Source: the human T2T-CHM13v2.0 reference genome, Homo sapiens. Taken from it: a stretch of DNA of 64,000 nucleotides. Under the pieces are notes generated by a model. It was given only the letters and a program-made list of their open reading frames with translations, had not been told where the DNA came from and made no database searches. The stretch is taken from assembly GCF_009914755.1 (NCBI RefSeq), contig NC_060930.1; one strand, written 5' to 3'. This document shows, in pieces, positions 17,460-19,268 of the stretch. Each line of letters opens with the position of its first letter. The first letter of the stretch is position 1. A program made the translations under genes and the position numbers.

Positions 17460-19111
17460 TCAAGTTGAGAGGGGGCGGTGACTAGGGGAAAGGCTGGAAA
17501 GTAGGGGTTGGCTTTGGTTTTGAAATTGTTGATACTCCTGGAGTAACATCATGCCCTGTATGGTTCCGTGGGCAAAAGCTCAGATACAGTTCTGTAAAAA
17601 CTGGGTGAGGAGGCGTATTAAGCAAGGCCCGAAGATTAGGAGAAGAAAAAGGATTATATCCGGTACAAGGAGAGGGAGTAGCCAGGGGGCCCAGGTGCTG
17701 ACAGACCAAGAGGCCCAAGAGGGCCAGGTAGAGGGGCTGCTTTCCCTGATCTTTTGGGCTCGATCTTTGAGTTTTTTAGTGCATCTTGAACTAAGCCTAA
17801 CTGATTAAAATAAAAGCAGCATTCTTTGTCTAGGAAAATAGAGTCCTCCTTTGTCAGCAGTCAGTAGGTCGAGACCTCTGTGATTTTGTAAGGCGACTGC
17901 CACTAGAGAGTCTAGCTGAGCTTGTAAGGTGGATATGGAAGTTGCAAGGTCATCTATACCATCTGAAAGGCCTTTTGATAAGGTTTTATGGTAATAAGAG
18001 GAAGCTGTGACTCCTGCTACTCCTGTGCCCGTGGCTGCTGTGATGCCCAGGCCTATGAGTAATGGGATAAGCTGTATGGCCCGGTGCCTGTGGTGTGGGA
18101 TTTGAGTATTTAGGGTTTGGAGGGGCAGGTTTTCTCCTGGAGCTATGCCCATTTTAGGGCTGAGGAAGACCAGTGTACAGGGGCCTGTCCGGTTGGTGGG
18201 AAGACAGAGGTAGATGGAGGTGCCGCATAGAAAGAATGCACCTTGTCTAGGGAGGCAGAATTGGAAATGTATGGCAAAAAGGAAGTGTAAAATGTTGTTC
18301 TCTGAGCGCCAGGCGTGGAGGGAGGAGGCTAGAGCCGCTCCGGTTAGGGGTTGAAGGGGGTGTGTTGAGTTGAGCTGGCTAGCTCCTACTGTTGAGTTTT
18401 CTAAGTGTAGAATGAAACATTCTGTATCAATAAGTAGTCTGTTTGAAGGTGTGTTAGGCAGTGGGATTTCCATGCATTCGGAAGCGGGGACGGGGTCTAG
18501 ACAAGTGCTCCACCCTGCGATTTCTATGCAGGGCCTGTGTCAGTTATTGCAGAATCCTGATGTTTCTCCCGTGACTCAGGTCTGAGGGGGGTTGGAGATT
18601 TTGAGAGTTTGTGTGGGGTTTGTTACTGTTACTGTTTGGATGCCTGTCGGGGGAGTGAGTGTCAGGGTATAGTTGCATAAGCTAGAGGAGAGGGTGCCTA
18701 GGGGGACTCCTGAGGAAAGTTCACGCTTTATGCATAGGGATGCTTGTTGGCTTAGTTTTGAGTCTGAGGTAAGTGCTCCTAAGATAACCTTGTGTTGTGA
18801 AGTACGTACGCTAAGATTAAGTTTGTAAATTTTGAGTGCATTTACTCCTCCGAAACTTTGGTAGCGGGGGTGGAGGGTTATACTGGTGAGAACCCAGTCT
18901 TTGAGGGGAACTGGGAAGGCATCCTTTGATATGGTTTCTGAGGGGTGTACACAGAACCAGCAGGCCTTGGCCAGGGAGGGGTTAGTTTGAGTATCGTATG
19001 TGCCTGTTGAATGGTGCGCTGAAGGTGAAGCTGTAGTGAGGATGAGGAGGAGGAGGGAAGAAGAAGTAAATAGATAGACAGCAAGTGTAAAGGTAAAGAA
19101 TTCGGCTTCAT
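17460..19111 (-). pseudogene. env: env (HERV-H-like gamma-type envelope), disrupted
   Basis: Signal peptide MKPNSLPLHLLSIYLLLLP from 19111; frameshift near 18990; SU CWFC motif; in-frame TGA stops; furin-like HRHR/AIQLIPLLIGLG fusion peptide; ISD LQNHRGLDLLTADKGG; frameshifted CX6CC remnant (IFLDKECCFYFNQ); TM WLLPLLVPDIILFLLLIFGPC. Confidence 0.92.
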
Positions 19112-19268
19112 CTGGAGTGAATTCCTGTAAATCCCCTTGAAATATAAGATCAGTGATCCAGTCAAGGAATGCCGTGAGGGTGGGATGTTCTGGGTAGGAC
19201 CATGAAATGTTTTCTGTGATGCAGTGAAGGAAGAGGGTGAAACAGCAGGACGGGCAAAGACAGGACAT
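18982..19268 (-). pseudogene. Candidate retroviral accessory ORF-B (~95 aa) overlapping the env signal peptide, now fused to SU by a small indel
   Basis: MSCLCPSCCFTLFLHCITENISWSYPEHPTLTAFLDWITDLIFQGDLQEFTPDEAEFFTFTLAVYLF... in the -1 frame relative to the env ATG. Restoring the env frame near 18990 brings a TAA (18984-18982) into this frame. Confidence 0.45.

What the first reader, a model, noticed from the sequence alone, without database searches (positions are those of the whole stretch)
18982..19268. Second spacer ORF (~95 aa, Cys-rich N-terminus) overprinting the env signal peptide
Seen: 13 nt after the ORF-A stop, another ATG opens MSCLCPSCCFTLFLHCITENISWSYPEHPTLTAFLDWITDLIFQGDLQEFTPDEAEFFTFTLAVYLF. 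It has a CxxC/His cluster, an acidic amphipathic stretch and a hydrophobic tail, and runs in the -1 frame across the env ATG (GAT GAA versus ATG AAG). Both small ORFs start in a TTAATG context. From memory (unverified): HERV-H reads roughly C..C.FTLFL..IT..ISW.YP...TL...L.WI.DL..QG.LQ.F.PDE..FFTF.L in this frame, apparently better conserved than the env frame. Inference: ORF-A, ORF-B and env may form a polycistronic cassette, analogous in layout to lentiviral vpu/env.
Basis: partly seen in the sequence, partly recalled or inferred. Interest (0 to 1): 0.8.

Follow-up and report, generated by a model that had tools for sequence, protein, structure and literature searches.

The report
Conserved small gene before retroviral env
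The small reading frame just upstream of the envelope gene in this dead human endogenous retrovirus is the relic of a real, selected protein-coding gene shared by several HERV-H/HERV-F-like families, retroviruses usually described as having no accessory genes.

Summary
The ORF is real. It lies on the minus strand, with its ATG at 19268, 13 nt after ORF-A, and it crosses the env ATG in another frame. In this window it does not stop at 18982. A window-specific 4-nt gap at 18991/18990 fuses it to env SU, so it runs 230 aa to 18576. Relatives carry a separate 94-codon ORF.

Homologous ORFs sit between pol and env in at least six lineages: the window's family (tRNA-Phe-like primer site), HERV-H, HERV-Fc2-like and three others. 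A lynx predicted protein also matches.

Across families, codons 1-52 have pN/pS of 0.32-0.40 in the ORF-B frame (single-pair Fisher p from 2e-4 to 2.5e-9). The other two frames give 0.86-2.6. Selection switches to the env frame after about codon 66.

There is no Pfam, PDB or viral fold match. AlphaFold gives a three-helix protein with a hydrophobic C-terminal helix.

My reading: an ancestral retroviral accessory gene, dead here. A vpu/env-like bicistronic expression route is plausible but untested.

Side results:
- ORF-A is also under purifying selection.
- The 527-aa Env ORF at 7q36 starts with an ORF-B homolog.

No description of ORF-B was found in the searchable literature, but key HERV-H papers were not held.

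The parts
25092..25493 (-). 5' LTR of the provirus
   Evidence: 91.9% identical over 406 nt to 17001-17404.
25071..25088 (-). Primer-binding site, tRNA-Phe-like (17 of 18 to the tRNA-Phe 3' end as I recall it)
   Evidence: Sequence read and coordinates. The tRNA match is recalled, not computed.
19512..19700 (-). End of pol (integrase C-terminal tail), with two internal stops in this copy
   Evidence: Frame-0 translation. The tail is homologous to the pol ends of L037, HERV-H and Fc2-like copies.
19282..19458 (-). ORF-A: 58 codons with two hydrophobic segments
   Evidence: pN/pS is 0.34-0.37 against a second ERV family, while the other frames give 0.8-1.1.
18982..19268 (-). This is the ancestral extent: ATG at 19268-19266, and the ancestral stop TAA at 18984-18982, which is out of frame in this copy
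   Evidence: Selection analysis.
18990..18991 (-). Site of the window-specific 4-nt gap that joins the ORF-B frame to env SU
   Evidence: Alignment with L002-L006; coordinates.
18576..19268 (-). The frame actually open in this window (230 aa): ORF-B fused to the env SU N-terminal part
   Evidence: The SU part aligns with the env of relatives.
18878..19111 (-). env start and signal peptide in its own frame, cut off from SU here by the 4-nt gap
   Evidence: The alignment with the HERV-H env N-terminus is gapless over 42 codons.
17580..18539 (-). env SU C-terminal part and TM, in two frames
   Evidence: Pfam TLV_coat, E 6.7e-32 and 8.6e-8.
17001..17404 (-). 3' LTR

Best explanation
ORF-B is the relic of a genuine retroviral gene: a small accessory-type ORF of 66-94 codons.

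Position and layout. The exogenous ancestors of several HERV-H/HERV-F-supergroup lineages carried it between pol and env. It has its own conserved ATG. That ATG sits at or within a few bases of the stop of the upstream ORF, which is pol or ORF-A. The 3' part of ORF-B overlaps the env start and signal peptide in another frame.

The protein. The constrained part is codons 1 to about 66. It is predicted to be helical and ends in a hydrophobic helix. That helix is encoded by the same U-rich bases as the env signal peptide. The last roughly 28 codons simply follow env.

This window. The provirus is dead, with stops in pol and a frameshifted env. A 4-nt gap has accidentally fused ORF-B to env SU, giving the 230-aa frame.

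Shown: homology, position, conserved start, and purifying selection in this frame only.

Inferred:
- The protein was made from the spliced env-type mRNA ahead of env, with ribosomes leaking past its weak AUG to reach env (vpu/env-like layout). I put this at about 45%.
- Alternatives are termination-coupled reinitiation after pol or ORF-A (about 20%) or a separate spliced mRNA (about 15%).
- It acted as a small membrane-associated factor. Its biochemical function is not known.
For: 1. Cross-family substitution pattern. I used gapless alignments of natural copies: 3 window-family copies x 16 HERV-H copies, and each set against L037.
   - In codons 1-38, upstream of every env ATG, mean nucleotide differences at codon positions 1/2/3 are 13.6/9.8/23.1.
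   - pS is 0.73-0.81 and pN is 0.23-0.30 in the ORF-B frame.
   - In single pairs over codons 1-38 and 1-52, pN/pS is 0.32-0.40, with Fisher p from 2e-4 to 2.5e-9. The +1 (env) frame gives 0.86-1.27 and the +2 frame 1.36-2.57.
   - A 30-codon core block among six lineages gives 0.55 in the ORF-B frame against 0.91 and 1.47. Ten of 15 pairs have p<0.05 in the ORF-B frame.
2. The same ORF at the same place in several lineages:
   - the window family, L002-L006;
   - HERV-H, named from the Env peptide in PMC8778306 Table 2;
   - L037/L068/L069, L067/L081 and L084;
   - HERV-Fc2-like L061-L066.
3. The ATG is kept in 25 of 26 distinct copies. M1 is invariant in alignment A1. A stop directly precedes the ATG in 10 of 15 representatives, and in Fc2-like copies the pol stop overlaps the ATG.
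4. The ORF is 94 codons in L003, in three database proteins and in at least 22 of the 150 listed genomic matches that show a stop-free 94-aa frame.
5. A profile search of 1.84 billion representatives gave 29 proteins at E<=1e-3. They include distant ones that share the core motif, one of them from Lynx canadensis.
6. It is not part of pol. Pol ends at the position homologous to other gammaretroviral pol ends, and ORF-B is in a different frame from pol in HERV-H, Fc2-like copies and L084.
7. The start context is weak in 15 of 15 representatives: a pyrimidine at -3 and no G at +4.
8. AlphaFold2 on 11 sequences gives mean pLDDT 70.6, with 72-85 over residues 11-70. Helices span 6-24, 31-44, 46-49 and 52-79. 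The hydropathy maximum lies in the C-terminal helix in HERV-H, the window family, Fc2-like copies and L084.
Against: - No transcript, splice-site or protein evidence was available. The expression route is inference only.
- The AUG-depletion test between the ORF-B and env ATGs gave 0-2 intervening ATGs against 1.5-2.1 expected, which is uninformative.
- Acceptor-like sites seen by eye inside ORF-B could yield an env mRNA that lacks the ORF-B AUG.
- The weak start context could partly reflect the C/T-rich, G-poor composition.
- The N-terminal Cys cluster is not conserved in Fc2-like copies or L084.
- In some lineages the hydrophobic C-terminal stretch is only about 12-14 residues, which is short for a membrane span.
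- The most distant pairs in the core block show no signal: for example L037-like against Fc2-like gives 0.98.
- HERV-Fc1 and two other gamma-like loci lack ORF-B altogether, so it was dispensable for related viruses.
- Copies are related by amplification, so pair averages are not independent. The single-pair tests address this only partly.
- All copies carry post-insertion decay.
- Key older HERV-H and HERV-F papers could not be read, so the gene may already be described.
Confidence: 0.75

Rival explanations
1. ORF-B is the true N-terminal leader of Env (a long leader or signal region). The separate frames seen in most copies would then be decay.
For: In-frame ORF-B-Env fusions recur:
- this window (230 aa);
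- L006, where the env ATG reads GTG;
- L002, open for 190 aa;
- HERV-H copies L043, L044 and L049, with 320-389 aa open;
- the 7q36 Fc2 locus, whose 527-aa Env ORF starts at the ORF-B ATG.
Against: - Each fusion comes from a different lesion: a 4-nt gap, a 2-nt surplus, 1-nt loss, or a deletion that removes the signal peptide.
- The unfused arrangement is found in L003, in five HERV-H copies with a stop-free 94-aa frame (L048, L050, L055, L058, L059) and in the Fc2-like L061/L062.
- Env has its own ATG followed by a classical hydrophobic signal peptide.
- Selection switches from the ORF-B frame to the env frame at about ORF-B codon 67.
- Any frameshift inside a 40-codon overlap that is free of stops will fuse the two frames by chance.
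Confidence: 0.05
2. ORF-B is a C-terminal extension of Pol. It would be made by read-through of the stop, or would have been part of pol ancestrally, taking the place of the pol tail that overlaps env in MLV-type genomes.
For: - It occupies the same position as the pol/env overlap of HERV-Fc1.
- In L037 and in the window it is in the pol frame. In L037 a single TAA separates the two.
Against: - ORF-B is in a different frame from pol in HERV-H, Fc2-like copies and L084.
- Pol ends at the point homologous to the Fc1 and Fc2 pol ends.
- The window has five further stops between the pol end and ORF-B in that frame.
- The ATG is conserved in 25 of 26 copies.
- ORF-A is inserted between pol and ORF-B in three lineages.
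Confidence: 0.07
3. There was never a protein. The conservation reflects cis-acting RNA or DNA signals (env splice acceptor, polypyrimidine tract, packaging or export elements) and the open frame is chance.
For: - The region is pyrimidine-rich with several acceptor-like CAG/AAG sites, read by eye.
- The env frame is also open for 52 codons upstream of the env ATG in this window.
- There is no Pfam or fold match.
Against: - Cis-elements do not produce a three-base periodicity. Differences concentrate at third positions of one frame only: 13.6/9.8/23.1 at positions 1/2/3.
- pN/pS is 0.32-0.40 in that frame and 0.86 or more in the others.
- Nucleotide identity is only 56-66% while amino-acid identity is 50-66%.
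- The HERV-H env frame has conserved stops upstream of its ATG.
Confidence: 0.05
4. The 230-aa fused frame in this window is itself a host-retained (domesticated) gene.
For: It is open for 230 aa in a provirus that is otherwise full of stops. An identical 230-aa protein cluster exists in the database and is shown as the window's own.
Against: - No gene is annotated here (hub note in the finding).
- The frame stops inside SU, far short of TM.
- It owes its length to one 4-nt gap that the four aligned relatives do not share.
- Orthologue conservation was not tested.
Confidence: 0.02

Closest known systems
HIV-1 vpu/env bicistronic arrangement
   Same: A small ORF lies immediately upstream of env and overlaps its start in another frame. 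Its AUG has a weak context that would let ribosomes scan on to env. The product has one strongly hydrophobic helix.
   Different: - There is no sequence or profile similarity.
- The hydrophobic helix is C-terminal, not N-terminal.
- The host virus is gamma-like, not a lentivirus.
- Expression is unproven here.
- The Vpu facts are from my own knowledge, not from a call.
Standard gammaretroviral pol/env overlap (MLV type; HERV-Fc1 examined here)
   Same: The genome position is the same: the stretch between the integrase C-terminal tail and the env signal peptide, read in a frame other than env.
   Different: In HERV-Fc1 (L076) the pol frame itself runs about 25 codons into env, and there is no ORF-B. 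In ORF-B-bearing lineages pol stops first and a separate ORF with its own ATG makes the overlap.
EnvF(c)2 (Env ORF of the 7q36 HERV-Fc2 provirus)
   Same: Its first 59 residues are an ORF-B homolog: 95% identical to P0027 and 45-53% to HERV-H ORF-B copies. The ORF from that ATG is 527 aa, with TLV_coat at 232-525.
   Different: At that locus ORF-B is fused in frame to Env. The env signal peptide seen in the sister copies L061/L062 is missing. The locus name rests on Villesen et al. 2004, Table 3, and on chromosome position. The match to the UniProt entry is recalled, not computed.
Betaretroviral Rem/Rec (accessory proteins that share the Env N-terminus)
   Same: They are accessory coding capacity tied to the 5' end of env.
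   Different: Rem and Rec use the env frame and env AUG and arise by splicing (own knowledge). ORF-B uses another frame and its own AUG upstream of env.

Membership tests
Retroviral accessory gene (operational definition) | ORF outside gag, pro, pol and env with its own conserved start codon | tested here: met
   The ATG is kept in 25 of 26 distinct copies and in 15 of 15 lineage representatives. Its frame differs from env, and from pol in three lineages.
Retroviral accessory gene (operational definition) | Purifying selection in its own frame between virus lineages | tested here: met
   pN/pS is 0.32-0.40 with p from 2e-4 to 2.5e-9, against 0.86-2.6 in the other frames. The core block gives 0.55 against 0.91 and 1.47.
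Retroviral accessory gene (operational definition) | Same genomic position in several related lineages | tested here: met
   It lies between pol and env in six lineages. It is absent from HERV-Fc1 and from a seventh family.
Retroviral accessory gene (operational definition) | A demonstrated mRNA and protein product | not testable with these tools
   No transcript or proteome data were at hand.
Vpu (lentiviral) | Match to the Vpu sequence family | tested here: not met
   Pfam gave no family for the window ORF at E<=1, nor for the HERV-H and Fc2-like ORF-B at E<=0.01.
Vpu (lentiviral) | N-terminal membrane anchor followed by cytoplasmic helices | tested here: not met
   The hydrophobic helix is C-terminal: residues 52-79 in the model, with the hydropathy maximum at 55-77.
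Vpu (lentiviral) | Small ORF upstream of and overlapping env in another frame, with a weak AUG | tested here: met
Env leader or signal peptide (TLV_coat Env) | Same reading frame as SU in well-preserved relatives | tested here: not met
   ORF-B is out of frame with env in L003, in HERV-H copies with a 94-aa ORF and in L061/L062. It is in frame in the window only through the 4-nt gap.
Pol/integrase C-terminal tail | Continuous frame with the integrase C-terminal domain, without a stop | tested here: not met
   A stop or a frame change separates them in every lineage.
Channel-forming viroporin or cation-channel pore-like fold | Structural match to a pore domain, and oligomerisation | tested here: inconclusive
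   The best VIA-align Z is 5.5 (rmsd 4.0, 76 aligned), to channel pore domains. That is below the level the tool calls meaningful for helical models. Oligomerisation was not tested.

The most novel reading that the evidence does not exclude
The HERV-H/HERV-F supergroup were not simple retroviruses. Their ancestors would have carried up to two small accessory genes between pol and env: ORF-A, a hairpin of two hydrophobic segments, and ORF-B, a helical protein with a hydrophobic C-terminus. Both would have been expressed ahead of env from the subgenomic mRNA. Dozens to hundreds of intact 94-codon ORF-B copies survive in the human genome, including in the common env-deleted HERV-H form that makes up abundant stem-cell transcripts. 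ORF-B-derived microproteins could therefore still be made, and one copy already supplies the N-terminus of an annotated human Env protein.
Probability: 0.3. Interest if true: 0.85.

Novelty: new variant of a known kind. Interest (0 to 1): 0.72.

Why it matters
Gamma-like endogenous retroviruses of the HERV-H/F/Fc clade are described as simple genomes without accessory genes. Diehl et al. 2016 (PMC4798954, passages read) say so directly. The accessory-gene section of Jern et al. 2005 (PMC1224870, passages read) names no gammaretroviral one.

A conserved, selected ORF between pol and env in six lineages changes that picture. It adds a new protein family with no known relatives. It also explains the odd N-terminus of the 7q36 Env ORF, which lacks a signal peptide.

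It raises a testable question: are the many intact copies on highly expressed HERV-H transcripts translated?

It is also a clean natural case of overprinting on a signal-peptide coding region, with selection switching frame part-way through the overlap.

Tried and rejected
- Pfam: no family for ORF-B from the window, HERV-H or Fc2-like copies.
- Foldseek against BFVD: best E 0.42.
- Foldseek against PDB: best E 3.4.
- VIA-align against 48,161 chains: best Z 5.5, mostly cation-channel pore domains. This is below the tool's own level for helical models, so I treat it as not significant.
- ESM Atlas: no usable hit.
- IMG/VR viral contigs: none. The A2 alignment was too diverse for that tool.
- The word-indexed protein database did not return the 527-aa 7q36 Env. 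Its link to the UniProt entry therefore stays recalled.
- AUG-depletion test for leaky scanning: uninformative.
- I first took loci L007-L030 for HERV-H. They hold no ORF-B DNA in 0 of 24 and no profile match in 0 of 24. They are another ERV family that carries only ORF-A.
- The gapless ORF-A alignment between the window family and HERV-H is unreliable in its first 14 codons. I rely instead. In one search, L026 has a 3-nt gap, and its figures should be ignored.
- The lynx protein hit only the window itself in the human genome.
- Literature: six full-text searches found no description of an ORF between pol and env in HERV-H/F.
- Jern et al. 2005 J Virol (PMC1091717) is not held. Lindeskog and Blomberg 1997, Jern 2004, Hirose 1993 and Benit 2003 were not available to read.
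- No complex prediction was run.
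Full report
**What is at the coordinates**

The finding lies inside an 8.5-kb provirus on the minus strand.
- The LTRs are 25493-25092 and 17404-17001. They are 91.9% identical over 406 nt, with 27 mismatches.
- At a neutral rate of about 1-2e-9 per site per year (a recalled figure), that divergence suggests roughly 15-30 million years.
- The primer-binding site at 25088-25071 reads like the tRNA-Phe type (the tRNA sequence is recalled). 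The element is therefore HERV-F-like by the old naming.
- Gag, pro-pol and env are all broken.
- Pfam finds TLV_coat in 17805-18539 and 17580-17804.
- Pol ends near 19512, with two internal stops in its last 63 codons.
- ORF-A follows at 19458-19282 (58 codons). ORF-B starts 13 nt after ORF-A, at ATG 19268. The env ATG is at 19111, in a third frame.

**Check of the observation**

The quoted peptide, the TTAATG contexts, the 13-nt spacing and the one-base offset across the env ATG are all correct. The length is not.
- In this window the frame stays open for 230 aa, down to 18576.
- An alignment with five genomic relatives (L002-L006, 72-91% identical) explains why. Relative to L002, L003, L004 and L006, the window lacks 4 nt between 18991 and 18990. 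It also has 6 extra nt in a CTC run.
Here it is out of frame, because 287 nt separate it from the ATG.
- The 4-nt gap moves the ORF-B frame into env SU. It also cuts the env signal peptide (frame of 19111) off from SU.
- In L003 the ORF is intact at 94 codons. L004, L002, L005 and L006 carry one or more private lesions.

**Relatives elsewhere in the genome**

A six-frame search with the 230-aa frame gave 182 matches, of which 150 were scored out of 1148 first-look candidates.
- Most matches cover only residues 1 to about 67, at 45-58% identity.
- Twenty-two of the 150 listed rows show a stop-free frame of exactly 94 aa.
- These are HERV-H. The published HERV-H Env peptide 229-241 of Q9N2J8 (PMC8778306, Table 2, read) occurs in the env translation of L049.

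In HERV-H the order runs as follows:
- pol ends;
- 8 nt later ORF-A starts (about 55 codons);
- ORF-A ends in TAA;
- the next codon is the ORF-B ATG;
- ORF-B runs 94 codons;
- env starts inside ORF-B in the +1 frame, with a first ATG at ORF-B codon 39-40 and a second at codon 53. The second corresponds to the window's env ATG.

Further lineages carry the ORF at the same place.
- **L037:** pol stop TAA is directly followed by the ATG, with no ORF-A.
- **L068/L069.**
- **L067/L081:** these also carry ORF-A.
- **L084:** a 66-codon ORF starts 7 nt after the pol stop.
- **HERV-Fc2-like family, L061-L066:** a 71-codon ORF whose ATG overlaps the pol stop.

HERV-Fc1 (L076) has the classical layout, with the pol tail overlapping env and no ORF-B.

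**Homologs in protein databases**

A profile search of 1.84 billion representative proteins found 29 at E<=1e-3.
- Several are 60-125-aa proteins that share only the core motif.
- One is an uncharacterised protein of Lynx canadensis. Close 94-aa ones come from Piliocolobus and Theropithecus.
- None has a Pfam domain or a name.

**Was it coding?**

I compared natural copies pairwise, without building any consensus, in gapless alignments anchored at the ATG.

*Codons 1-38.* This stretch lies upstream of every env ATG.
- Window-family against HERV-H copies differ on average at 13.6, 9.8 and 23.1 sites in codon positions 1, 2 and 3.
- Nucleotide identity is 59%.
- In the ORF-B frame pS is 0.81 and pN is 0.30.
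- The other two frames give pN/pS of 1.16 and 1.80.

*Single pairs.* These avoid counting related copies repeatedly.
- pN/pS is 0.32-0.40 in the ORF-B frame, with Fisher p from 2e-4 to 2.5e-9.
- The env frame gives 0.86-1.27 and the third frame 1.36-2.57.
- Amino-acid identity over codons 1-52 is 50-66% in the ORF-B frame and 19-53% in the others.

*Core block.* A 30-codon block across six lineages gives 0.55, 0.91 and 1.47.
- The signal fades in the most diverged pairs, where both classes of site are near saturation.
- Post-insertion decay can only push these ratios toward 1.

I conclude that ORF-B was translated and under purifying selection in the viruses that gave rise to these families.

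**The overlap with env**

I anchored at the env ATG and compared L003 and L004 with five HERV-H copies.

| Region | ORF-B frame pN/pS | env frame pN/pS | Nucleotide identity |
|---|---|---|---|
| env codons 1-14 (ORF-B 53-66) | 0.42 | 0.74 | 67% |
| env codons 15-42 (ORF-B 67-94) | 1.92 | 0.57 | 44% |

- The constrained ORF-B protein is therefore residues 1 to about 66.
- The tail is a passenger of env.
- The shared stop position arises because the TAA sits across the codon before the conserved Asn of an env motif and that Asn codon.

**What it is not**

- *Not the tail of pol.* Pol ends at the homologous point in all lineages. ORF-B is in a different frame from pol in HERV-H, Fc2-like copies and L084. 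The window has five further stops between the two.
- *Not the Env leader.* Env has its own ATG and hydrophobic signal peptide, and the unfused state is seen in several families.
- The recurrent in-frame fusions each stem from a different small lesion inside a stop-free overlap of about 40 codons. That is what chance would give. The fusions are in the window, L002, L006, HERV-H copies L043/L044/L049 and the 7q36 Fc2 locus.

**The protein**

- Pfam finds nothing.
- AlphaFold2 with 11 sequences gives mean pLDDT 70.6 and pTM 0.49. Helices span 6-24, 31-44, 46-49 and 52-79.
- The last helix is the hydrophobic stretch. It is encoded by the same bases as the env signal peptide.
- The N-terminal Cys cluster is present in HERV-H, the window family, L037-like copies and L067/L081. 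It is absent from Fc2-like copies and L084.
- The part common to all lineages is an amphipathic helix, a short Gln-Gly-containing motif, and the hydrophobic end.
- Fold searches gave nothing significant. The weak recurrence of cation-channel pore domains (Z up to 5.5) is only a lead.

**How it may have been expressed (inference)**

- All 15 representative start codons have a pyrimidine at -3 and no G at +4. In 10 of 15 a stop codon directly precedes the ATG. In Fc2-like copies the pol stop overlaps the ATG.
- The spacing from the ORF-B ATG to the env ATG is 156-160 nt in three families.
- Gammaretroviral env acceptors normally lie inside pol (own knowledge). That would put ORF-B, and ORF-A where present, on the env mRNA ahead of env. 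The layout would then resemble vpu/env.
- The stop-start juxtaposition would also fit reinitiation after pol or ORF-A.
- Acceptor-like sites inside ORF-B (read by eye) leave open that env mRNA skips the ORF-B AUG.
- The AUG-depletion test could not discriminate between these routes.

**ORF-A**

- Loci L007-L029 matched only the ORF-A stretch of the window. They belong to another gamma-like ERV family, with rve and MLVIN_C upstream and TLV_coat downstream.
- In that family a 58-59-codon ORF-A homolog lies directly before env, and ORF-B is absent in all 24 loci L007-L030.
- The window against two of these copies gives pN/pS of 0.34-0.37 in the ORF-A frame (p 1e-4 and 1.4e-5). The other frames give 0.84-1.13.
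- ORF-A is therefore a second conserved small gene, and it occurs with or without ORF-B.

**Literature**

- Diehl et al. 2016 (PMC4798954, passages read) state that ERV-Fc and other gammaretroviruses encode no accessory genes. They also note that hominid and Old World monkey Fc2 env does not overlap pol.
- The accessory-gene section of Jern et al. 2005 (PMC1224870, passages read) names no gammaretroviral one.
- Blanco-Melo et al. 2017 (PMC5388530, passage read) report an extra ORF 5' of gag in HERV-T, which is not this one.
- Villesen et al. 2004 (PMC524368, Table 3 read) list EnvF(c)2 on distal chromosome 7, minus strand. This fits L063.
- Six full-text searches found no description of this ORF.
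- The main HERV-H structure papers were not available, so prior description cannot be excluded.

**Verdict**

The interpretation that this is a gene is strongly supported for the ancestral viruses. The window copy is a dead relic, accidentally fused to env. The polycistronic mechanism remains a reasonable, untested inference.

Noticed in passing
window 19282-19458 (-); L007-L029: ORF-A (58 codons, two hydrophobic segments) is itself under purifying selection: pN/pS is 0.34-0.37 against another ERV family, with the other frames near 1. That family carries ORF-A directly before env and has no ORF-B, so ORF-A is an independent conserved small gene.
   Followed up: partly
L063 (chr7:154.58 Mb of the assembly), L064, L065/L066; compare L061, L062: The 527-aa Env ORF of the 7q36 HERV-Fc2 provirus begins at the ORF-B ATG, and its first 59 residues are ORF-B. 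The env signal peptide present in the sister copies L061/L062 is deleted. The annotated Env N-terminus is therefore not of Env origin.
   Followed up: partly
L043, L049 (also L044, L046, L053): Several HERV-H copies have small lesions in the ORF-B/env overlap that fuse ORF-B to Env, giving open frames of 320-389 aa. L043 and L049 share the same junction, which suggests an amplified subfamily or gene conversion.
   Followed up: no
L006 (chr1:36.2 Mb): In this 72%-identical relative of the window family, the env ATG reads GTG. A 2-nt surplus puts the ORF-B ATG in frame with env, and the frame is open for 208 aa.
   Followed up: no
L038, L055, L058, L060: These HERV-H copies join the end of the integrase core directly, and in frame, to the second half of ORF-A. 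This is a recurrent internal deletion that removes the integrase C-terminal domain and the first half of ORF-A.
   Followed up: no
L055 (chr2:155.3 Mb), L058 (chr3:169.6 Mb), chr2:166.17 Mb match: The three places that, by chromosome position, appear to be the HERV-H proviruses with coding env (EnvH3, EnvH2, EnvH1 of Villesen 2004, Table 3) all show a stop-free 94-aa ORF-B. The mapping between assemblies was not verified.
   Followed up: no
P0002, P0003 (Piliocolobus), P0005 (Theropithecus), P0031 (Lynx canadensis): Automatic gene predictions in other mammals already list ORF-B homologs as uncharacterised proteins. The lynx one shows that the family reaches carnivore genomes.
   Followed up: partly
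window 25648-26311: Alu-like repeats lie directly outside the 5' LTR, seen as the typical translated Alu frames in the ORF list.
   Followed up: no
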